Positions 40,012 through 48,198 of a stretch of 54,666 nucleotides of DNA are shown here, one piece after another; position 1 is the stretch's first letter; the number at the start of each line of letters is the position of its first letter. The stretch comes from Actinomycetota bacterium (GTDB taxonomy: Bacteria > Actinomycetota > CADDZG01 > JAHWKV01 > JAOPZY01). The translations under genes and the position numbers were made by a program. The notes beneath the pieces were generated by a model, which was not told the origin of the DNA, did no database searches, and was given only the letters and a program-made list of their open reading frames with translations. The stretch spans positions 1-54,666 of the forward strand of contig DASXNO010000196.1 of assembly GCA_036495025.1 (NCBI GenBank), given 5' to 3'.

Positions 40012-40410
40012 ATGGCGGTTGCGGAGCTGTCCCGGGCGACCGGGCGACGGAAGGAAGCGGTGGCCCGGGTCCGGCTGGTGCCGGGCGAGGGCAAGTTCAT
40101 GATCAACCGCTCCCGCAGCCTCGAGGACTACTTCCCCAACCTCGCCGTCCGCATGACGATCCTCGAGCCGTTCCGGCTCGTGGGCCGGGAGAAGGCCTAC
40201 GACGTGTTCGCCCTCCTCGAGGGCGGCGGCAACACGGGGCAGGCCGGGGCCATCCGCCACGGCATCGCTCGTGCCCTCATCGAGCTCGATCCGGAGCTGC
40301 GGCCCCCGCTCAAGCGGGCGGGCATGCTCACCCGGGACGCCCGGGCGAAGGAGCGCCGCAAGTACGGACTCAAGAAGGCCCGCAAGGCACCGCAGTACTC
40401 AAAGCGGTAG
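40012..40410 (+). CDS. rpsI: 30S ribosomal protein S9
   Basis: Contains [18 protein letters not shown] and [19 protein letters not shown], ending [12 protein letters not shown]. Confidence 0.97.
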
Positions 40411-40447
40411 GCGGCCATCCCGGAGCGCCACAGGAACCGGCACTAAG

Positions 40448-41839
40448 TTGGGCCGCCTGTTCGGCACGGACGGCGTCCGGGGCATTGCCAATGTCGAGCT
40501 GACCCCGGAGCTCGCCCTGCGGCTCGGCCGCGCGGCGGCCACCGCCTTTCGTTCCCGGCACCGCCGTCCCTCCGTGCTCATCGTCCGAGACACCCGGCGC
40601 TCGGGCGACCTGCTCGAGGCCGCCCTGTCGGCGGGGCTGCTCTCGGCGGGCTCCGACGTCTATGCCTGCGGCGTCCTGCCGACCCCCGCCGCGGCGTTCC
40701 TGGCACCTGACGCCGGCGCAGACGCCGGCGCCGTCGTCTCTGCCTCGCACAATCCCGCCGCCCACAACGGGATCAAATTCTTCGGGCCGGACGGCTACAA
40801 GCTCAACGACGACGAAGAGGAGGGCATCGAGGCCCTCATGGAGCGCTCCGGTAGGTTGGGGAGTCCCGAGGGCTCCCTCAAGGCGCCGGATCAGAATCTG
40901 GTGCTCGGGGCAGACGTCGGCCGCATCCTCTCCCTGCCCGACGCCGAGGACCGCTACGTCGCCCACGCACTGCGCTGCCTTGAAGGCAGGCGCCTCGAGG
41001 GCATCAGGGTGGTCGTCGACTGCGCCAACGGGGCGGCCTACCGCACGAGCCCGCGCGCCCTCGCCGAGGCGGGGGCGGAGGTGGTCCCGATGAACGTCGA
41101 ACCCGACGGGATGAACATCAACGTCGACTGCGGCTCGACCGATCCGAGCAGGCTCGGCGAGGCGGTCGTCCGCCTGGGCGCCGACGTCGGGCTCGCCCAC
41201 GACGGCGACGCCGACCGGGTGCTGGCGGTGGACAGCCGGGGCGACCTCGTCGACGGAGACACCATCATCGCCATCCTCGCCACCGAGTTGCACGAGGCCG
41301 GTCGCCTGCCCGGGGACCTCGTGGTGACGACGGTCATGGCCAACCTCGGCTTCCGTGTCGCGATGGCGGCGGCGGGCATCGGCCTGGTCGAGACGGCGGT
41401 CGGCGACCGCTACGTCATCGAGGCGATGCGCCGCCACGGCGCTGGGATCGGTGGCGAGCAGTCTGGCCACGTCATCCTCTCCGACTGCTCGACCACCGGG
41501 GACGGCCTGATCACGGGGCTGCGCCTCCTCGCGCGCATGGCGGCGACCGGCCGGCCGCTGTCGGAGCTGGCCAGGGTCGTGGAGCGCTACCCCCAGGTGC
41601 TGGTCAACGTCGCGGTCCGGGACCGCTCCGCGCTGGGCGGCGCCGCGAGGGTCTGGGAGGCGGTCGAGGCGGTCAAGACCGAGCTGGGCGACCTCGGCCG
41701 GGTGCTCGTCCGGCCGTCGGGGACGGAGGCGGTGGTCCGGGTGATGGTGGAGGCGTCCGAGTCCGCGACCGCCGAGCAGGCGGCGGCGACGATCGTCGAT
41801 GCGGTGCTCCGGGACCTCGGGGAGCCTGCCCAAGCTTAA
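40448..41839 (+). CDS. glmM: phosphoglucosamine mutase
   Basis: TTG 40448 gives (M)GRLFGTDGVRG. The active-site loop is SASHNPAAHNGIKFFG. Confidence 0.94.
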   Translation: MGRLFGTDGVRGIANVELTPELALRLGRAAATAFRSRHRRPSVLIVRDTRRSGDLLEAALSAGLLSAGSDVYACGVLPTPAAAFLAPDAGADAGAVVSASHNPAAHNGIKFFGPDGYKLNDDEEEGIEALMERSGRLGSPEGSLKAPDQNLVLGADVGRILSLPDAEDRYVAHALRCLEGRRLEGIRVVVDCANGAAYRTSPRALAEAGAEVVPMNVEPDGMNINVDCGSTDPSRLGEAVVRLGADVGLAHDGDADRVLAVDSRGDLVDGDTIIAILATELHEAGRLPGDLVVTTVMANLGFRVAMAAAGIGLVETAVGDRYVIEAMRRHGAGIGGEQSGHVILSDCSTTGDGLITGLRLLARMAATGRPLSELARVVERYPQVLVNVAVRDRSALGGAARVWEAVEAVKTELGDLGRVLVRPSGTEAVVRVMVEASESATAEQAAATIVDAVLRDLGEPAQA

Positions 41840-41967
41840 AGTTGGGCCCGAACCGCACCGATAAGATGACTGGATTGAGCTGGTGGTTTCAGCTCGGGGG
41901 GAGTGCGAGCGCCAGACCTCCGCGTGCGCGACGCCACGAGGCAACCAAGGCAAGGAGTAGTCCGGCC

Positions 41968-44900
41968 ATGTGCGGAATTGTCGCTGTCATGCGGAGGAGC
42001 ATCGACCGCCCTGCGCCGCAGGCGCCGGCGGTCCTCGCCTCGGCGGAGGAAGCCCGGGAGATCACCGCTTCGGCGCCCACCGACCTCATCGAGCTGGCGG
42101 CCGCACTCGAGCGGTCCGCCGCGCTGCTGGCGGGGATCGACGAAGACCTCCGGGGCACGCCGGGGCTCAGGTTCCTGATCGAGGCGTCCGAGGCGGCCCC
42201 CGCGCTGGACAAGGTCATCGGCGGGATCGAGGACGAGGTGGCCGTGATCGAGGCCGCGTTCGACCGGGCCGCCGCCACCCTGCCCGCCAGCACCCCGGGC
42301 GCGGAGATGGAGTCGGTCAATGCCGGGCTCATTCACCTGAAGGACCTGTGCTGGGCCATCCGCCACGACCGCCTCCAGACCGCCGCCGAGGTCGCAGCCC
42401 TGGCCGGGCCGTCCGCCAGTCCCTCGGCCATCGAGGCCTACGCCGCCATCGAGACCGCACTCTCGGCGCTCGACCGCCTGGAGTTGCGTGGCAGGGACTC
42501 GTCGGGGCTCCACGTGCTCGTCGACGGGCACGGCCTCGACCTCGACGACCCCGCCATCGCCGGGACGCTTGCCGCCCGGGGCGCCGACCGGCTCTTCACG
42601 TCCGGGTCGGTTCGCCACCCGCTGGGGCTCCTCGCCTTCGTCTACAAGGCGGCGAGCGAGATCGGCCGGCTTGGCGACAACGGGCGGGCGCTCCGCTCCG
42701 CCATCGCCACCGACGATCTCCTGAGGAGGTCGCTGCAGGCCCCCGGTGTCACGGTGATGGTGCTGGGCCACACCCGCTGGGCCAGCGTAGGTCTGATCAA
42801 CGAGGCGAACGCCCACCCGCTCAACCACGAGGAGCTGCGTGCCGAGCGCAGGGACGCTCCCTATGTCGTCGGAGCCCTCAACGGCGACGTCGACAACTAC
42901 CGGGACCTCGTCGAGCGCTACAGCCTGTCGATCGCCGACGAGATCACCACCGACGCCAAGGTCATCCCCGCCCTCGTCTCACGCCGGCTGGACACGGGCT
43001 CGACCCTGGAGGAAGCCTTCCGCGCCACGGTCAGCGAGTTCGACGGTTCCGTTGCGATCGGGGCCGTGGCGGCGCAGAGTCCGGCCAGGCTGATGCTGGC
43101 GATGCGCGGCAGCGGCCAGGCCCTCTACGTCGGGTTGGCGCCGGGCCAGTTCGTCGTGGCCAGCGAGCCCTACGGGGTCGTCGAGGAGTGCCCCCGGGCG
43201 CTGCGGATGGACGGCGAGTCCACCGTCGACGGCGGCGGCAATCCCGTGCCCGCGGGCCAGATCGTCATCCTCGACGCGACCCTGGCCGGGCAGGAGGCCG
43301 GGATCACCCGCCTGTCCTACGACGGCAGCCCGTTGCCGGTGGCTCCCGGGGAGTTCCGCCCCGCCGAGATCACCACGCGTGACATCGACCTGCGGGGCTA
43401 CCCGCACTTCCTCCGCAAGGAGATCGAGGAGTCGCCGGTGTCGCTGCGCAAGACCCTCCGTGGCCGTGTGAAGCAGGTCGACGGGACCCTCTCGGTGAGC
43501 CTTCCGCCCGAGACGCTGCCGCCGCGGGTGGCCGAGCGTCTTGCCGATGGCAGCATCCGCCACGTGGTCGTCATCGGGCAGGGCACCGCGGCGATCGCGG
43601 GGTTGGGCGTCGCGGCTGCGCTCGGCGAGGCGCTGGCCCCCACCGGCCTCGCCGTCCGGGCGTTACCGGCCACCGAGCTGTCGGGGTTCGAGATGACCGC
43701 CGACATGACCGACGTCCTGGCCGTCGCCGTCAGCCAGTCGGGCACCACGACCGACACCAACCGCACCGTGGACCTCATCCGCTCCCGGGGCGCCGCGGTG
43801 ATCGCCATCGTCAACCGCCGCGGCAGCGACCTCAGCCACAAGGCCGACGGCGTCTTCTACACCTCGGACGGCCGGGACGTGGAGATGAGCGTCGCCTCGA
43901 CCAAGGCCTTCTACGCGCAGGTGGCCGCCGGACAGCTCCTCGGGCTGGCCCTGGCCGACGCCGCAGGCTGCGGGAACCCCGCCCGGGCCCACGAGCTCCT
44001 GTCGGGCCTCGTCGCCCTCCCCGAGGCGATGGCGCAGGTCCTCGACCAGGAGGCGCACATCGCGGAGCTGGCTGCCCGCCATGCGGCCCGCCGCCGGTCC
44101 TGGGCGGTCGTCGGCAACGGCCGGAACCTGATTGCCGCCCACGAGGTCCGGATCAAGCTCTCCGAGCTCTGCTACAAGGCGGTGGCCTGCGACACGACCG
44201 AGGACAAGAAGCACATCGACCTGTCCTCCGAGCCCCTCACCCTGGTCTGCGCCGCGGGCCTCAGCGGGTCGGCCGCGGACGACGTCGTGAAGGAGATCGG
44301 CATCTTCCGGGCCCACAAGGGCGCCCCGGTGGTGATCGTCACCGAGGGCGAGGGCAGGTTCGGCCCCGCTGAGGACGTGATCCAGGTGCCCCCTGCCCAT
44401 CCCAGCCTGGCCTACGTCCTCTCCGCAATGGCGGGACACCTCTTCGGCTACCACGCTGCCCTCGCCATCGACGGCCACGCCCTGCCGCTGCGCCGGGCGC
44501 GCGCCGCCCTCGACCGCAGCGTCGCCTCGGAGAGCGCCGATCAGCTCCTCGCCTCCCTGAGCGCCGAGCTGTTTCCGATTGCCGCCGACTTCCAGGAGCG
44601 CCTGCGTCAGGGCCACTACAACGGCTCGCTGGAAGCGGCGACGGCGGGCCGCATCGTGATGGCGCTGCAGTCGGTGACCGGCGCCGGCTCCTGGACCGCC
44701 GGTCACGGACGCCTCGCCGAGGTCGACGACTCACCCTCGGCCCTCCTGAACGAGCTCGCCGCCGCCCTGACCACCGGCATCGACGAGCTGACCCGCCCCG
44801 TCGATGCCATCAAGCACCAGGCGAAGACGGTCACCGTTGGCATCTCGCGATCCGACGAGTCCCTCCTCATCCTGCCGCTGGTGAGCGGCCTGCTGGCAAC

Positions 44901-45438
44901 GGGCGCCGAGCGGCGCCACCTCCCGTACGCGGTGCTTCGCTCCGTTGCCGCGCTCGACCCGGCCGTCGCCGAGGTGACCGGCTACACGCGGTACCGGATC
45001 GACGGCCGTCCGGACGACCCCACGGCGTCGATCTCGGTCGTGGACAAGGGCGGCGTCGCCGCCGGCGTCGCCTCCCGGACCGATCGCGACCACCGCCTCC
45101 GGGGCACCAAGCAGCTCGTCGCCCTGGAACGCCAGCCCCTCGCCGCCATCGGGCGCAGCGACGGGAGGAGCGTGCTGATCGTGCCGGAGATGGCAGGCGG
45201 CCTGACGGTGGGGCTGACGCTGCTCCACGTCCAGTTCCAGGACCGCCTCACCGCCGCTCAGGCCCGCCAGGTCCTCGACGGGTACCGCGGGAGGCTGGCG
45301 GCCCTGCGCAGCATCGTCACCGAGACCGAGGCGGTCTTCGACGAGAGCCGCCTTGCCTCCATCCCGACCGCGAACCTGCTGACCGACACCCTCGTCGTCC
45401 TGGCCGAGCACTGGCGAAGCCAGACCTCCGGACGTTAG
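41968..45438 (+). CDS. giant GlmS-like glutamine amidotransferase/SIS-domain protein (~1156 aa) at the syntenic position of glmS
   Basis: ATG 41968 is preceded by aaggag. It has an N-terminal nucleophile MCGIV, then HTRWASVG...NAHP, NGDVDNY and TDAKVI (class II GATase). It has two SIS-like blocks (SQSGTTTDT...SVASTKAF and GRNLIAAHEVRIKLSELCY). The large insertions are described in the findings. Confidence 0.8.
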   Translation: MCGIVAVMRRSIDRPAPQAPAVLASAEEAREITASAPTDLIELAAALERSAALLAGIDEDLRGTPGLRFLIEASEAAPALDKVIGGIEDEVAVIEAAFDRAAATLPASTPGAEMESVNAGLIHLKDLCWAIRHDRLQTAAEVAALAGPSASPSAIEAYAAIETALSALDRLELRGRDSSGLHVLVDGHGLDLDDPAIAGTLAARGADRLFTSGSVRHPLGLLAFVYKAASEIGRLGDNGRALRSAIATDDLLRRSLQAPGVTVMVLGHTRWASVGLINEANAHPLNHEELRAERRDAPYVVGALNGDVDNYRDLVERYSLSIADEITTDAKVIPALVSRRLDTGSTLEEAFRATVSEFDGSVAIGAVAAQSPARLMLAMRGSGQALYVGLAPGQFVVASEPYGVVEECPRALRMDGESTVDGGGNPVPAGQIVILDATLAGQEAGITRLSYDGSPLPVAPGEFRPAEITTRDIDLRGYPHFLRKEIEESPVSLRKTLRGRVKQVDGTLSVSLPPETLPPRVAERLADGSIRHVVVIGQGTAAIAGLGVAAALGEALAPTGLAVRALPATELSGFEMTADMTDVLAVAVSQSGTTTDTNRTVDLIRSRGAAVIAIVNRRGSDLSHKADGVFYTSDGRDVEMSVASTKAFYAQVAAGQLLGLALADAAGCGNPARAHELLSGLVALPEAMAQVLDQEAHIAELAARHAARRRSWAVVGNGRNLIAAHEVRIKLSELCYKAVACDTTEDKKHIDLSSEPLTLVCAAGLSGSAADDVVKEIGIFRAHKGAPVVIVTEGEGRFGPAEDVIQVPPAHPSLAYVLSAMAGHLFGYHAALAIDGHALPLRRARAALDRSVASESADQLLASLSAELFPIAADFQERLRQGHYNGSLEAATAGRIVMALQSVTGAGSWTAGHGRLAEVDDSPSALLNELAAALTTGIDELTRPVDAIKHQAKTVTVGISRSDESLLILPLVSGLLATGAERRHLPYAVLRSVAALDPAVAEVTGYTRYRIDGRPDDPTASISVVDKGGVAAGVASRTDRDHRLRGTKQLVALERQPLAAIGRSDGRSVLIVPEMAGGLTVGLTLLHVQFQDRLTAAQARQVLDGYRGRLAALRSIVTETEAVFDESRLASIPTANLLTDTLVVLAEHWRSQTSGR

Positions 45439-45493: not shown

Positions 45494-46624
45494 GTGACGG
45501 GACCGGGGGCGTTGGCGAGCGAGGCGGCGGGCGTCGTCGTCATCGTCCTGACCTCCGGCAGCGTCGCAAGGACCCTCCTGCTGCCCGGGAGCCGGGTGGG
45601 GTTCCTGCTCAGGAAGATCGACCAGGGCACCGACCGCGTCTTCCGGTTGATCGGGCACATGGTCTCCACGCACGAACGCCGGAGCCGGTACCGCTCCGTC
45701 CATGCCCCGGTGATCCTGGCCGCGCAGTTGTGGAGCTGGCTCGTCCTCTACTTCCTCGGCTTCGCCCTCCTGCTGTGGCCGCAGACCGGCCAGCTGAGCC
45801 GGGCGCTGAAGGAGTCGGGCTCCTCGCTGCTGACCCTTGGCTTCGCCGCCACGGGCCGCGGCACGGCCGTGACGATCGATCTCCTGGCCGCCGCGACCGG
45901 CCTGATCGTCGTCGCGCTGCAGATCGCCTACCTCCCGACGCTCTACAACGCCTTCAACCGCCGCGAGGCCGACGTGTCGCTCCTCGCGATTCGGGCCGGC
46001 CAGCCGGCCTGGGGGCCGGAGCTGCTTGCCCGGTCCCACCTCATGGGCGCCGTCTCGGAGCTGCCCCAGCTGTATGCGACCTGGGAGCGCTGGGCGGCGG
46101 AGGTGGCGGAGAGCCACTCGAGCTACCCCGTCCTGCTGCGCTTCCGGGCCGCGAATCCCCTCTCGTCGTGGCTCACCGGGTTCCTGGCGGTGCTCGACTC
46201 CGCAGCCCTCTACGCCTCGATCACCACCGAGGAGTACCCGCTCCAGGCCCGGTTGTTCCTGCGGATGGGGTTCGGGTGCCTGCAGCAACTCGCCGACACG
46301 GTCGGGATCCCCTACGACGCCGACCCCCGGCCCGACGCCGGGATCCGCCTCACCGAGGCCGAGTTCCAACGGGGCATCGACCGGCTCCGGGCGTACGACT
46401 TCCCCATCGGCCGGCCGCTCGAGGAGGTCTGGATCAACTTCCAGGGGTGGCGGGTCAACTACGAGTCCATCGCCTACACCCTCGCCTACCAGATCGACGC
46501 CCCACCAGCGCTGTGGTCGGGCCCCCGCCGCCACCCGACGCCACAGGTCGCCCCGCGGCGGCTCCTCGACCGCACACCGGACGACCCGGAGGGCGCCAAG
46601 CCGGCCAAGCCAGGGCGCTGGTAA
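45494..46624 (+). CDS. membrane protein of unknown function
   Basis: 376 aa with a GTG start. The N-terminal part has hydrophobic helices (LWSWLVLYFLGFALLLW, IDLLAAATGLIVVALQIAYL) and an SLLTLGFAATG segment vaguely reminiscent of a degenerate pore loop. The C-terminal ~200 aa look soluble. Confidence 0.6.
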   Translation: MTGPGALASEAAGVVVIVLTSGSVARTLLLPGSRVGFLLRKIDQGTDRVFRLIGHMVSTHERRSRYRSVHAPVILAAQLWSWLVLYFLGFALLLWPQTGQLSRALKESGSSLLTLGFAATGRGTAVTIDLLAAATGLIVVALQIAYLPTLYNAFNRREADVSLLAIRAGQPAWGPELLARSHLMGAVSELPQLYATWERWAAEVAESHSSYPVLLRFRAANPLSSWLTGFLAVLDSAALYASITTEEYPLQARLFLRMGFGCLQQLADTVGIPYDADPRPDAGIRLTEAEFQRGIDRLRAYDFPIGRPLEEVWINFQGWRVNYESIAYTLAYQIDAPPALWSGPRRHPTPQVAPRRLLDRTPDDPEGAKPAKPGRW

Positions 46625-46659: not shown

Positions 46660-48198
46660 ATGGGCGCCGTGCTGGCCGTCCTGACCCCTGAGCAGATGGC
46701 TGCGGCGGACCGGGCGACGATCGCGGCCGGGACCCCCTCGCTCACGCTCATGGAGCGGGCGGGCATCGCCGTGGCAGCGGCCGCCGTCCGCGCCGCCGGC
46801 GGGGCCTACGGGCGCCGGGTCATCGTCCTGGCCGGCAAGGGCAGCAACGGCGGTGACGGGCTCGTGGCGGCCCGCCACCTCGCCGCACGGGGGGTCTTTC
46901 CGGTGGTGGTGTTCCCCGACGACCCCGGGGAGCTGCACGGCGACGCGCGCACCAACCTGGAGCGCCTCCGCGATGTCCGGACCCTCCGCTTCGCGGAGGA
47001 CAGCTTTGCCCGGGAGCTGCGGCGTGCCGACCTCGTCGTCGACGCGCTCTACGGGACCGGGTTCCGGGGCGTCCTCGCCGGCCCGCCGGCCCAGGCAGTG
47101 AAGGCCGTCAACCAGTCCGGCCTGCCGATCGTGGCGGTCGACATCCCTTCGGGGGTCAACGGGCTGACGGGCCGGGTGGACGGCCCCGCCGTCCGGGCCA
47201 CGATCACGGTCACCATGGCGGCCCTCAAGCTCGGCATCGTCTTCCACCCCGGCAGCGAGTACGCCGGGGAGGTGGAGGTCGTGGACATCGGCATCACGAC
47301 CCCGCAGTTCCCGAAGGTGATCGGGGTCCCCGAGGAGGCCGACGTCGCCCGGGTCCTCGGCCACCGGCCGCTCGATGCCCACAAACGCAGCGTCGGCACG
47401 GCCATGGTCGTCGCAGGGTCGGTCGGCATGTCCGGCGCGGTCGCGCTTGCCGCCAGCGGCGCCCTCCGCTCGGGGGCCGGGCTGGTGACGATCGCCTCGG
47501 GGGCGTCGGTGGTCAGCGAGATCCATCCCCGCGTGCTCGAGGCCACAAGCCTGCGGCTGCCGGAGACCCCCCAGGGGACGCTGGCCGCGGGGGCCCTGGA
47601 CCTGATCCTCGACAGGGCCCCCACGGTGGACGCCGTGGCGATCGGGCCCGGTCTCACAACCGACCGCGAGACGGTCGAAGTCGTCCGCAAGGCGGTCGCC
47701 GCGCTCGAGAACCCACTCGTAGCCGACGCCGACGCCCTGAACGCCATCGCCGGCGATCCCGGCGTCCTCGTGGCCAGGGGTGCCCCGGCCGCCATCACTC
47801 CCCACCCCGGCGAGCTGGGACGGCTGCTCGGGGTCTCGACCGCCTCGATCCAGGCGGACCGGCTCGCGGCCGCACGCCATGCCGCCGAGCACTTCGGCTG
47901 CGCCGTTGTGTTGAAGGGGTACCGCAGCATCGTCGCCGACTCCTCCGGGCCCACCGTCATCATCACGACCGGCGGCCCCGCCCTCGCGACCGGGGGGACC
48001 GGTGACGTCCTGACGGGGGTGACCGCCGCCCTGCTGGCCGGCGGCGCCGAGCCGTTCACGGCAGCCTGGGCGGCCTCGTGGCTGCACGGAAGAGCGGGAG
48101 ACGTCCTGGAGCGGGTCATCGGGGCCCGGGGCACCCTCGCCGGGGATCTGCCCGGCGCCATCGCGGGCGTCATCCACGACCTCGAGGCGCTCACCTGA
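46660..48198 (+). CDS. nnr: bifunctional NAD(P)H-hydrate repair enzyme (epimerase / ADP-dependent dehydratase)
   Basis: The YjeF N-terminal domain has GKGSNGGDGLVAARHL. The C-terminal carbohydrate-kinase-like domain has GGTGDVLTGV. Confidence 0.9.
   Translation: MGAVLAVLTPEQMAAADRATIAAGTPSLTLMERAGIAVAAAAVRAAGGAYGRRVIVLAGKGSNGGDGLVAARHLAARGVFPVVVFPDDPGELHGDARTNLERLRDVRTLRFAEDSFARELRRADLVVDALYGTGFRGVLAGPPAQAVKAVNQSGLPIVAVDIPSGVNGLTGRVDGPAVRATITVTMAALKLGIVFHPGSEYAGEVEVVDIGITTPQFPKVIGVPEEADVARVLGHRPLDAHKRSVGTAMVVAGSVGMSGAVALAASGALRSGAGLVTIASGASVVSEIHPRVLEATSLRLPETPQGTLAAGALDLILDRAPTVDAVAIGPGLTTDRETVEVVRKAVAALENPLVADADALNAIAGDPGVLVARGAPAAITPHPGELGRLLGVSTASIQADRLAAARHAAEHFGCAVVLKGYRSIVADSSGPTVIITTGGPALATGGTGDVLTGVTAALLAGGAEPFTAAWAASWLHGRAGDVLERVIGARGTLAGDLPGAIAGVIHDLEALT

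What the first reader, a model, noticed from the sequence alone, without database searches (positions are those of the whole stretch)
41968..45438. The glmS-position gene encodes a ~1156-aa GlmS-like protein, nearly twice canonical size
Seen in the sequence: downstream of rplM-rpsI-glmM, where actinobacteria usually carry glmS, the ORF starts MCGIV (Ntn Cys after Met removal). It contains recognisable GlmS blocks: LELRGRDSSG, HTRWASVG..NAHP, NGDVDNY, TDAKVI, YPHFLRKEIEESP, SQSGTTTDT, SVASTKAF and EVRIKLSELCY. These are interrupted by extra sequence. About 150 aa of A/E/L-rich helical-looking sequence sits between MCGIVAV and LELRGRDSSG; in canonical GlmS these are about 15 aa apart. About 80 aa lie between the second SIS block and a KTVTVGISR motif that resembles the canonical C-terminal ..AKSVTVE lid. 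About 195 aa follow that motif. The second SIS block also reads TEDKKHIDLS where canonical enzymes have GELKHGPLAL. Established knowledge: canonical bacterial GlmS is about 600-625 aa and ends at the KSVTVE tail, which closes the isomerase site. Inference: this is either a regulated or oligomerising GlmS variant, or a paralogue with a different sugar-phosphate substrate. It sits near a glycan island, which makes an amino-sugar role plausible.
Basis: partly seen in the sequence, partly recalled or inferred. Interest (0 to 1): 0.6.

Follow-up and report, generated by a model that had tools for sequence, protein, structure and literature searches.

The report
Double-length GlmS replacing the ordinary enzyme
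This gene encodes a real, widely conserved, double-size version of GlmS, the enzyme that makes the amino-sugar precursor of the cell wall; it keeps the checked catalytic residues and is the only GlmS in this genome. It carries about 540 extra residues in four modules that no paper I found describes.

Summary
Window 41968-45438 (+) is one open 1156-codon frame starting MCGIV. It lies in the slot truA-rplM-rpsI-glmM-[gene]-nnr, where relatives keep an ordinary 610-aa glmS.

It is not an assembly fusion. More than 7500 full-length homologues exist, at least 593 species genomes encode one, and AlphaFold2 gives one compact model (pLDDT 88).

The core is GlmS:
- The model matches E. coli GlmS 2j6h with TM 0.82.
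- Every catalytic residue I checked is invariant in 120 homologues.
- The Schiff-base lysine motif (QAKTVTVG) is kept, but it is now internal rather than at the C-terminus.

Four modules are added: a 5-helix insert after the Cys1 strand, a small insert of about 45 aa, a 4-helix arm before the lid, and a 195-aa alpha/beta end domain. The end domain resembles GAF/PAS sensor domains only weakly.

The genome is 98% complete. It has glmM and glmU but no canonical glmS and no NagB. In 301 genomes of its phylum, 26 of 27 carriers of the long form lack canonical glmS. In a second phylum, labelled Planctomycetota, 23 of 25 carriers lack it.

Best reading: this is the housekeeping GlcN6P synthase, with built-in regulatory or architectural modules. 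That role for the modules is inferred.

This scan noted the same protein before on other DNA. I found no paper on it.

The parts
41952..41957 (+). Shine-Dalgarno AAGGAG, 10 nt before the ATG. It lies in the 128-nt glmM-glmS spacer, which has no Rfam match.
   Evidence: Sequence read; Rfam scan of 41700-42100 found no match at E<=1.
41968..45438 (+). Long-form GlmS gene: 1156 codons plus stop.
   Evidence: Open frame. More than 7500 full-length homologues. AlphaFold2 model with pLDDT 88.1 and pTM 0.82. Foldseek match to E. coli GlmS 2j6h_A, TM 0.82 normalised to the target.
41968..41994 (+). Residues 1-9: initiator Met, nucleophile Cys2 (Cys1 of the mature enzyme) and the first beta strand.
   Evidence: 112 of 120 homologues begin MCGII or MCGIV. 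Strand E3-9 in the model.
41995..42435 (+). Insert A, residues 10-156: a five-helix module placed between the Cys1 strand and the first canonical helix. Invariant residues are G63, G66, D126, W129 and D134.
   Evidence: Helices 19-34, 40-61, 63-72, 76-102 and 111-146 at pLDDT above 90. Canonical sequences show a gap here. No Pfam match.
42436..43377 (+). Ntn glutaminase core, residues 157-470. It carries R174 (R26), R270/W271 (R73/W74), H283 (H86), N305-G306 (N98-G99) and D329 (D123). It contains Insert B, about 45 extra residues within 187-261 (nt 42526-42750).
   Evidence: HMMER alignment to 1jxa. Invariant columns. Alignment with four canonical actinobacterial GlmS.
43378..44472 (+). Linker and isomerase domain (two SIS subdomains), residues 471-835. 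It carries T540 (T302), A541 (S303->Ala), S589-Q590-S591-T594 (S347-Q348-S349-T352), S644 (S401), K730 (K485), E733 (E488) and H749 (H504).
   Evidence: The loop 737-750 that holds H749 is one of only two internal stretches with pLDDT below 50.
44473..44793 (+). Insert C, residues 836-942: a helical arm. It continues the last isomerase helix (815-852) with helices 857-880, 890-904 and 923-942, and leads to the lid.
   Evidence: Model secondary structure. Canonical sequences show a gap here.
44794..44850 (+). Lid motif, residues 943-961: RPVDAIKHQAKTVTVGISR. It corresponds to the canonical C-terminal tail DKPRNLAKSVTVE, with A952 = A602, K953 = K603 (Schiff-base lysine) and V955 = V605. Here it is internal, tethered at both ends.
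   Evidence: It is the most conserved segment of the protein, 98% mean top-residue frequency. It aligns with the canonical tails. pLDDT is below 50 at 945-960, as expected of a mobile element.
44851..45435 (+). C-terminal domain, residues 962-1156: an alpha/beta module with a five-stranded sheet and flanking helices. Its GAF/PAS-like resemblance is weak. Invariant residues are Y1009, K1048, D1065, R1067, R1109 and E1119.
   Evidence: Separate model with pLDDT 93.3 and pTM 0.89. Foldseek best hits are GAF domains at E 2e-3 to 1e-2 with TM 0.3-0.4, and 7jsr with TMq 0.52. No Pfam or PDB sequence match. Invariant columns.
40460..41839 (+). glmM (phosphoglucosamine mutase), the next enzyme of the pathway. 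The start is approximate.
   Evidence: TIGR01455 at 538 bits against a cut-off of 447. It lies directly upstream of the long form in 63 of 80 related loci.
46660..48198 (+). nnr (NAD(P)H-hydrate epimerase/dehydratase), the conserved downstream marker of the slot.
   Evidence: It lies downstream in 61 of 80 related loci. It also lies next to canonical glmS in relatives G001, G108 and G294.

Best explanation
The gene encodes the cell's only glutamine:fructose-6-phosphate amidotransferase (GlmS, EC 2.6.1.16), in a double-length form.

Shown here: the canonical two-domain enzyme is embedded in the 1156-aa chain with its catalytic set intact. That set comprises:
- Cys1 after Met removal.
- The glutamine and oxyanion residues.
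- The Trp that gates the ammonia channel.
- The Ser-Gln-Ser-Thr phosphate cradle.
- The Lys485, Glu488 and His504 equivalents.
- The Ala-Lys-x-Val lid motif.

Inferred from this: glutamine is hydrolysed at Cys1. Ammonia passes through the channel to Fru6P held as a Schiff base on K953. E733 and H749 carry out ring opening and isomerisation. The product GlcN6P goes to GlmM, encoded by the adjacent gene, and then to GlmU.

Also inferred, with less certainty: the four added modules are regulatory or architectural. In ordinary GlmS the C-terminal tail is a free lid that closes the sugar site and completes the ammonia channel. Here the same motif is an internal loop, held between a four-helix arm and a 195-aa alpha/beta domain that has a conserved set of basic and polar residues. 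A ligand binding to that end domain, or a change in oligomer contacts, could therefore open or close the lid and switch the enzyme. This would be protein-level feedback. Other bacteria achieve it with the glmS ribozyme, GlmY/GlmZ-RapZ or GlmR, and eukaryotes with UDP-GlcNAc binding to GFAT.
For: Reality of the gene:
- Open frame with a ribosome-binding site.
- More than 7500 full-length homologues of 1100-1200 aa.
- At least 593 species genomes encode one.
- One compact high-confidence model.

Identity of the core:
- HMMER matches to E. coli GlmS structures at E 7e-30 over residues 266-833.
- The glmS models of NCBIfam are the best hits.
- Foldseek gives TM 0.82 to 2j6h_A and 0.70-0.75 to human GFAT1.
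- The equivalents of C1, R26, R73, W74, H86, N98, G99, D123, T302, S347, Q348, S349, T352, S401, K485, E488, H504, A602, K603 and V605 are invariant or nearly so in 120 homologues.

Role in the cell:
- Conserved order truA-rplM-rpsI-glmM-[long GlmS]-nnr. Relatives keep canonical glmS in this same slot.
- The own genome (98% complete) has glmM and glmU over their cut-offs.
- It has no canonical glmS and no PF01182 NagB.
- Its only other SIS protein is a PGI/PMI.

Replacement of the canonical enzyme:
- In 301 genomes of the phylum, 27 carry the C-terminal extension and 26 of them lack canonical glmS. Among the other 274 genomes, 268 have it.
- In a second phylum, 25 of 121 genomes carry the extension and 23 of those lack canonical glmS. 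Among the other 96 genomes, 84 have it.

Role of the modules:
- The lid motif is the most conserved stretch, at 98%.
- Together with the His loop it is the only low-confidence internal part of the model, as expected of mobile catalytic elements.
- The end domain folds with confidence. Its nearest structures are GAF-type ligand-binding domains and the large mycobacterial GDH, whose flanking segments include ACT-like and PAS-type modules (PMC8175468).
Against: - No activity, expression or ligand data exist.
- The protein scores below the curated glmS cut-offs: 228.7 against 418 bits.
- It is only 28-32% identical to canonical GlmS of the same phylum, on a very long branch. A changed specificity therefore cannot be excluded from sequence alone.
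- S303 is replaced by an invariant Ala, and the His-loop context (TEDKKHIDLS) differs from GELKHGP.
- The sensor reading of the end domain is weak. No Foldseek match reaches E 1e-3, and TM to GAF domains is 0.3-0.4. Only 1 of 81 members touches a Pfam GAF model, at E 0.1. There is no PDB sequence match.
- Three genomes (G108, G438, G462) carry both forms, so the two are not strictly interchangeable or exclusive.
- I had no model coordinates, so how the modules pack against the active sites was not examined.
Confidence: 0.77

Rival explanations
1. The enzyme is the housekeeping GlcN6P synthase, but the added modules are purely architectural. They build a different oligomer or higher-order assembly, or add stability, and sense no ligand.
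For: - Inserts A and C are helical bundles or arms with no family match.
- The GAF/PAS resemblance of the end domain is weak.
- In the large mycobacterial GDH, which gave the best TM score, the flanking segments form inter-subunit contacts (PMC8175468).
Against: - The end domain keeps an invariant polar and basic set (Y1009, K1048, D1065, R1067, R1109, E1119). That pattern is more typical of a binding site than of a packing surface.
- The lid motif is tethered between the modules, which suggests coupling to catalysis.
Confidence: 0.3
2. It is a paralogue with another substrate or product. For example, it may aminate a different ketose phosphate for a surface glycan or natural product.
For: - It scores below the curated glmS cut-offs.
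- It sits on a long branch away from canonical GlmS.
- S303 is changed to Ala and the His loop is altered.
- In G108 the long form lies beside a GH38-like gene while a canonical glmS holds the housekeeping slot.
Against: - It is the only GlmS-like gene in this genome, which needs GlcN6P for glmM and glmU.
- It is nearly mutually exclusive with canonical glmS in two phyla.
- Synteny with glmM is conserved.
- All other Fru6P-contacting residues are conserved.
Confidence: 0.07
3. It is an artefact: an assembly or gene-call fusion of glmS with neighbouring genes, or a decayed gene.
For: The window comes from a fragmented assembly of 383 contigs with 6% contamination.
Against: - The same single frame of 1100-1200 aa recurs in thousands of independent assemblies, including closed chromosomes.
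- The extra parts are insertions inside the fold, not appended genes.
- The C-terminal extension is not found as a separate gene in any of the 274 sampled genomes that lack the long form.
- AlphaFold2 models one compact chain.
Confidence: 0.01

Closest known systems
Canonical bacterial GlmS (E. coli glucosamine-6-phosphate synthase, 609 aa; PDB 1jxa, 2j6h, 4amv; NCBIfam TIGR01135)
   Same: - Ntn glutaminase domain followed by a two-SIS isomerase domain.
- The checked catalytic, substrate-binding and channel residues, except S303->Ala and two glutamine-loop changes (T76->Ser, H77->Val).
- The AK(S/T)VTV lid motif.
- The core superposes with TM 0.82.
- The gene sits beside glmM in the slot that canonical glmS occupies in relatives.
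   Different: - Nearly twice the length.
- A 147-aa five-helix insert directly after the Cys1 strand and an insert of about 45 aa in the glutaminase domain.
- A helical arm of about 105 aa before the lid.
- The lid is internal instead of C-terminal and is followed by a 195-aa domain.
- S303 is changed to Ala.
- Only about 30% identity to canonical GlmS, and a score below the family cut-off.
Eukaryotic GFAT1/GFAT2 (about 680-700 aa; PDB 6r4e, 6svp and others)
   Same: Both are GlmS homologues that are longer than the bacterial enzyme. GFAT is controlled at the protein level by feedback from UDP-GlcNAc; that is established knowledge, and ligand complexes appear among the hits. These were the top Foldseek hits by E-value, with TM 0.70-0.75.
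   Different: GFAT's extra sequence is a short insert in the glutaminase domain, and its tail is still C-terminal. Nothing in GFAT corresponds to Insert A, the helical arm or the end domain.
Large glutamate dehydrogenase L-GDH180 of Mycobacterium smegmatis (PDB 7jsr; PMC8175468)
   Same: Both are housekeeping nitrogen-metabolism enzymes of Actinomycetota enlarged by long flanking segments. In L-GDH180 these include ACT-like and PAS-type modules proposed as metabolic sensors. It gave the best TM score for the end domain, TMq 0.52 over 210 columns.
   Different: The catalytic cores are unrelated. The match has E 2e-3, and the tool does not say which part of the 1564-residue chain it covers. There is no sequence similarity.
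GAF domains (for example PDB 3eea, 3trc, 5w10)
   Same: Alpha/beta sandwich topology. They make up most of the top 50 Foldseek hits for the end domain.
   Different: E-values are 2e-3 to 2e-2 and TM is 0.3-0.4. Pfam GAF models do not match; 1 of 81 members hits at E 0.1. The end domain should not be filed as a GAF domain.
Other ways bacteria regulate GlmS: the glmS ribozyme, GlmY/GlmZ-RapZ and GlmR (YvcK)
   Same: They do the job that I propose for the added modules, namely feedback control of GlcN6P synthesis.
   Different: They are separate RNAs or proteins. The leader here has no Rfam match. The genome has no YvcK-family gene over the cut-off. Lack of YvcK is also common among relatives with canonical GlmS.

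Membership tests
GlmS (EC 2.6.1.16; TIGR01135) | Nucleophile Cys directly after the initiator Met (Ntn amidotransferase) | tested here: met
   The protein begins MCGIV. 112 of 120 homologues begin MCGII or MCGIV.
GlmS (EC 2.6.1.16; TIGR01135) | Glutamine-site and oxyanion residues R26, R73, H86, N98, G99 and D123, plus the channel gate W74 | tested here: met
   R174, R270, H283, N305, G306, D329 and W271 are invariant or nearly so.
GlmS (EC 2.6.1.16; TIGR01135) | Two SIS subdomains with the phosphate cradle T302, S303, S347, Q348, S349, T352 | tested here: met
   T540, S589, Q590, S591 and T594 are conserved. S303 is an invariant Ala (A541). The isomerase fold has TM 0.85-0.88 to isolated isomerase domains.
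GlmS (EC 2.6.1.16; TIGR01135) | Isomerase catalytic residues K485, E488 and H504 | tested here: met
   K730, E733 and H749 are invariant.
GlmS (EC 2.6.1.16; TIGR01135) | Lid motif with Schiff-base K603 (A-K-S/T-V-T-V) | tested here: met
   QAKTVTV at 951-957 is invariant and aligns with the canonical tails.
GlmS (EC 2.6.1.16; TIGR01135) | The lid is the free C-terminus of the chain, which ends ...KSVTVE | tested here: not met
   The motif is followed by 195 further residues that form a folded domain.
GlmS (EC 2.6.1.16; TIGR01135) | Score over the curated family cut-off, and a length of about 600-700 aa | tested here: not met
   228.7 bits against 418.05 for TIGR01135, and 247.5 against 381 for NF001484. 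The length is 1156 aa.
GlmS (EC 2.6.1.16; TIGR01135) | Catalyses Gln + Fru6P -> Glu + GlcN6P | not testable with these tools
   Indirect only. It is the sole candidate in a genome with glmM and glmU, and it is nearly mutually exclusive with canonical glmS.
GAF domain (for the C-terminal 195 aa) | Match to GAF profile models or a clear structural match | tested here: inconclusive
   Foldseek E >= 1.8e-3 with TM 0.3-0.4. Pfam GAF_3 matches 1 of 81 members at E 0.1.

The most novel reading that the evidence does not exclude
The long form is a self-regulating GlmS. The catalytic lid, free in all studied GlmS and GFAT enzymes, has been captured between a helical arm and a ligand-binding end domain. 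A pathway metabolite, most plausibly a phosphorylated or nucleotide sugar such as UDP-GlcNAc or GlcN6P, then opens or closes both the sugar site and the ammonia channel. On this reading it is a second, ancient type of GlmS that displaced the ordinary one across about half of sampled Acidimicrobiia, in other Actinomycetota lineages and in a fifth of sampled genomes of a second phylum. It also removes the need for ribozyme, sRNA or GlmR control.
Probability: 0.3. Interest if true: 0.7.

Novelty: new variant of a known kind. Interest (0 to 1): 0.56.

Why it matters
GlmS is the committed, essential step of amino-sugar and peptidoglycan synthesis. It is a textbook case of ammonia channelling and a long-standing antimicrobial target.

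If the reading is right, large and environmentally abundant clades run this step with an unrecognised double-length enzyme. These clades include about half of sampled Acidimicrobiia, several other Actinomycetota lineages, and many genomes of a phylum labelled Planctomycetota. Public annotation calls the protein only 'SIS domain-containing protein', or files it as ordinary glmS.

Practical consequences:
- It would correct pathway reconstructions that report glmS as missing in these MAGs.
- It would give a natural experiment on how the catalytic lid of an amidotransferase can be put under allosteric control.
- Cultured carriers exist for bench work. The record titles without a MAG tag are IMCC26207 and Acidimicrobiia isolate KE-4.

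Tried and rejected
- **Assembly fusion.** Rejected. The single frame recurs in thousands of assemblies and in closed genomes.
- **Fusion with a formerly separate gene.** The C-terminal 317 aa find no free-standing homologue in the 274 sampled genomes that lack the long form.
- **RNA control element in the 128-nt leader.** No Rfam match at E<=1.
- **Family or solved-structure names for the added parts.**
  - Pfam at E<=10 gave only noise for Insert A and the C-terminal parts.
  - A per-member Pfam scan of 81 end domains gave scattered noise.
  - A profile search of PDB sequences gave nothing.
- **Does the long form stand in for GlmR/YvcK?** The own genome lacks YvcK, and 22 of 27 long-form genomes lack it. 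Whole families with canonical GlmS lack it too. The link is confounded by relatedness and I do not use it as evidence.
- **Neighbours of the long form where it is outside the slot.**
  - G108 (L102): a GH38-like gene and unnamed ORFs, no clue.
  - G239: its best glmM-like gene (43% identical) has none of the slot's other genes nearby, so that genome says nothing about how replacement happened.
- **Other SIS proteins as an alternative GlmS or NagB-II.** The only one over the cut-off is a PGI/PMI.
- **Literature.** Six full-text searches were run. The first five, plus a check of the Acidimicrobiia signature-protein paper PMC5962788, found nothing on a long GlmS. The sixth was a look-up of the L-GDH180 paper (PMC8175468).

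Full report
**1. The observation**

Window 41968-45438 (+) translates without a stop into 1156 residues beginning MCGIVAV. An AAGGAG lies 10 nt before the ATG, inside a 128-nt spacer after glmM.

Family searches:
- Pfam sees only a class-II glutamine amidotransferase domain (264-400) and one SIS domain (531-659).
- The two NCBIfam GlmS models are the best hits, but both fall below their cut-offs: 247.5 bits against 381, and 228.7 against 418. They align to residues 261-833.
- The best solved structures by sequence are E. coli GlmS entries 4amv, 1jxa and 2j6h (E about 7e-30, residues 266-833), followed by human GFAT1.

The neighbours are truA, rplM, rpsI and glmM upstream and nnr downstream. 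The stretch between the second SIS subdomain and the lid lysine is about 117 aa, not about 80. There is also a further insert of about 45 aa at 187-261.

**2. It is a real, single gene**

- A word-indexed search returned 7533 significant proteins. The best 120 were nearly all 1100-1200 aa and covered 95-100% of the query at 56-96% identity.
These include Acidimicrobiales, Ilumatobacteraceae, Microthrixaceae, Iamia and a MAG titled Ferrithrix. Two records carry no MAG tag: IMCC26207 and Acidimicrobiia isolate KE-4.
- An exhaustive search of 50%-identity cluster representatives gave 906 hits at E<=1e-30. The best 150 were long forms or fragments of them.
- AlphaFold2 on a 120-sequence alignment gave one compact chain with mean pLDDT 88.1 and pTM 0.82.

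An assembly fusion is therefore excluded.

**3. Anatomy**

I combined three sources: the model's secondary structure, the HMMER alignment to 1jxa, and an alignment with four canonical GlmS taken from relatives. The chain reads as follows.

| Residues | Element |
|---|---|
| 1-9 | Cys1 strand |
| 10-156 | Insert A, five long helices, pLDDT above 90 |
| 157-470 | Glutaminase core, including Insert B (about 45 extra residues within 187-261) |
| 471-835 | Linker and the two-SIS isomerase domain |
| 836-942 | Insert C, a four-helix arm continuing the last isomerase helix |
| 943-961 | Lid motif RPVDAIKHQAKTVTVGISR |
| 962-1156 | Alpha/beta end domain |

The whole model matches E. coli GlmS in its closed, ligand-bound form (2j6h_A) with TM 0.82 normalised to the target. 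It matches isolated isomerase domains with TM 0.85-0.88.

**4. Catalytic residues**

Numbering E. coli GlmS from Cys1, the equivalents are as follows.

| E. coli GlmS | This protein |
|---|---|
| C1 | C2 |
| R26 | R174 |
| R73, W74 | R270, W271 |
| H86 | H283 |
| N98, G99 | N305, G306 |
| D123 | D329 |
| T302 | T540 |
| S347, Q348, S349, T352 | S589, Q590, S591, T594 |
| S401 | S644 |
| K485 | K730 |
| E488 | E733 |
| H504 | H749 |
| A602, K603, V605 | A952, K953, V955 |

All of these are invariant or more than 90% conserved in 120 homologues. Besides S303, which is an invariant Ala, the glutamine loop reads S273 and V274 where E. coli has T76 and H77.

What changes is the surrounding context, not the catalytic His.

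The lid motif is the most conserved segment of the protein, at 98% mean top-residue frequency. It aligns column for column with the canonical C-terminus ...NLAKSVTVE.

The lid and the His loop (737-750) are the only internal stretches with pLDDT below 50. That fits elements which order only on substrate binding or dimerisation in known GlmS; this last point rests on established knowledge of the E. coli structures.

**5. The added parts have no family**

- Pfam finds nothing credible in Insert A or the C-terminal 317 aa.
- Pfam finds nothing credible in any of 81 end domains scanned one by one.
- A profile of the end domain finds no PDB sequence.

Folded alone, the end domain is confident: pLDDT 93.3 and pTM 0.89, with a five-stranded sheet and flanking helices. 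Its Foldseek hits are dominated by GAF domains, but only at E 2e-3 to 2e-2 with TM 0.3-0.4.

The best TM score (0.52 normalised to the query) is to the 180-kDa glutamate dehydrogenase of M. smegmatis, 7jsr. The flanking segments of that enzyme contain ACT-like and PAS-type modules proposed as metabolic sensors (PMC8175468). The tool does not report which part of that chain is matched.

I therefore call the domain 'sensor-like' only tentatively. It keeps an invariant set of polar and basic residues: Y1009, K1048 (in an RGTK turn at a helix start), D1065, R1067, R1109 and E1119. That set would suit an anionic ligand, but this is an inference.

**6. Role in this genome**

The assembly (3.59 Mb, 383 contigs, 98% complete, 6% contamination) has no match to the glmS model over the cut-off other than this gene. 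The remaining hits are other amidotransferases.

- glmM (538 bits) and glmU (482 bits) are present.
- There is no PF01182 (NagB) match.
- The only other SIS protein over the cut-off is a bifunctional PGI/PMI.

The long form is thus the only visible source of GlcN6P.

**7. Synteny**

In 63 of 80 related loci glmM lies directly upstream, and in 61 nnr lies downstream. Most of the others are cut by contig ends.

Relatives of the window's own order and class (G146, G294, G001) have a canonical 610-aa glmS in exactly this slot, as does the canonical copy of G108.

**8. Replacement of the canonical enzyme**

Window's phylum, 301 genomes at least 90% complete:
- 269 have canonical glmS over the cut-off.
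- 27 have the C-terminal extension.
- 26 of those 27 lack canonical glmS. Only G108 has both, with the canonical copy in the slot and the long form elsewhere beside a GH38-like gene.
- Of the 274 without the extension, 268 have canonical glmS.

Class of G091, which the record titles indicate is Acidimicrobiia:
- The extension is present in 51 of 101 genomes.
- It is all-or-none by family: for example 16/16, 6/6 and 5/5 against 0/13, 0/12 and 0/5.
- The sampled members of the families without it (G017, G047, G158, G119, G132, G170, G227, G216) have canonical glmS.

**9. A second phylum**

This appears to be new relative to the earlier notes of this scan. Four loci sit at the base of the long-form tree. 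Three of them (L018, L033, L080) are titled Planctomycetota. Their genomes are 4.1-10.3 Mb and have only the long form.

Sampling 121 genomes of the phylum of one of them drew entirely new handles, so it is not the window's phylum. The results were:
- The extension was found in 25 genomes, always inside open frames of 1095-1340 aa and directly after a GlmS-like core.
- Seven matches were close (45-53% identity) and 18 distant (29-39%).
- 23 of the 25 lack canonical glmS. Of the other 96 genomes, 84 have it.

The near-exclusive pattern therefore repeats in an independent phylum. I rely on submitters' titles for the name of that phylum.

**10. Phylogeny**

I built a quick maximum-likelihood tree of 75 long forms and 4 canonical actinobacterial GlmS.
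- The long forms are one clade (support 100), separated from the canonical sequences by a very long branch.
- The window's protein groups (support 99) with G108's copy and an unclassified MAG (L010), outside the main Acidimicrobiia cluster.
- The copy of G239, from the window's own order, branches separately.

The tool warns that long branches meet at the root, so the order of the basal lineages is not reliable. Together with the patchy presence in the window's order (G000 and G239 long; G146 and G294 canonical), the tree suggests either old ancestry with repeated loss or lateral transfer. I cannot decide between these.

**11. Regulation: what was tested**

- The leader has no Rfam match.
- The genome lacks a YvcK/GlmR gene over the cut-off.
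- 22 of 27 long-form genomes lack YvcK/GlmR, but so do entire families with canonical GlmS. This is not evidence.

The proposal rests on anatomy alone. I suggest that the tethered lid is the point of control and that the end domain binds a pathway metabolite.

**12. Prior knowledge**

Six full-text searches were run; five looked for a long GlmS and found nothing, and a check of one Acidimicrobiia marker paper found nothing either. The sixth search was a look-up of the L-GDH180 paper. NCBI names these proteins 'SIS domain-containing protein', and JGI names them glmS.

This scan had already noted the same protein on other genomes. Four follow-ups reached the same reading: a double-length GlmS with a sensor-like end domain and no paper. 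I repeated their main checks independently. I add:
- The whole-genome evidence that it is the sole GlmS.
- The two-phylum exclusion pattern.
- The all-or-none family distribution.

**13. Verdict**

This is a real and ordinary-looking housekeeping function carried by an unusual, uncharacterised architecture. I class it as a new variant of a known kind, of moderate interest.

Noticed in passing
window 45494-46624 (+): The 1.2-kb stretch between the long glmS and nnr holds a 376-codon ORF with several hydrophobic, membrane-like segments. It has no Pfam or NCBIfam match and no tblastn match in 80 related loci. It appears to be a lineage-specific hypothetical membrane protein in a slot that is otherwise conserved.
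   Followed up: partly
L100 (G108:C155) and L102 (G108:C313); also G438 and G462: Three genomes carry both a canonical glmS and a long form. In G108 the canonical copy holds the truA-rplM-rpsI-glmM-glmS-nnr slot, and the long form lies elsewhere beside a GH38 alpha-mannosidase-like gene. G108 has 5% contamination, so a binning artefact is not excluded.
   Followed up: partly
L018, L033, L080 (record titles Planctomycetota); L024 (title Acidobacteria): Long-form GlmS occurs in MAGs labelled as other phyla. The Planctomycetota-labelled genomes appear genuinely different: they are 5.6-10.3 Mb, and a sample of their phylum shows 25 of 121 carriers. L024 shows the full actinobacterial synteny and may be a mislabelled bin.
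   Followed up: partly
G391:C1:3639717-3641468 and G454:C1:150317-151786: Two genomes of the second phylum have GlmS-like cores inside open frames of about 1230 aa. These did not match this window's C-terminal extension at E<=1e-5. They may be still more divergent long forms.
   Followed up: no
own genome G000 (whole assembly): A 98%-complete genome has no match at all to PF01182, the family that covers NagB and also 6-phosphogluconolactonase. It also has no YvcK/GlmR-family gene over the cut-off.
   Followed up: no
window 40271-40460 (+): The longest glmM ORF starts 63 codons before the first residue matched by the glmM model, and it overlaps the end of rpsI (40012-40410). The true start is probably later, near 40460.
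   Followed up: no
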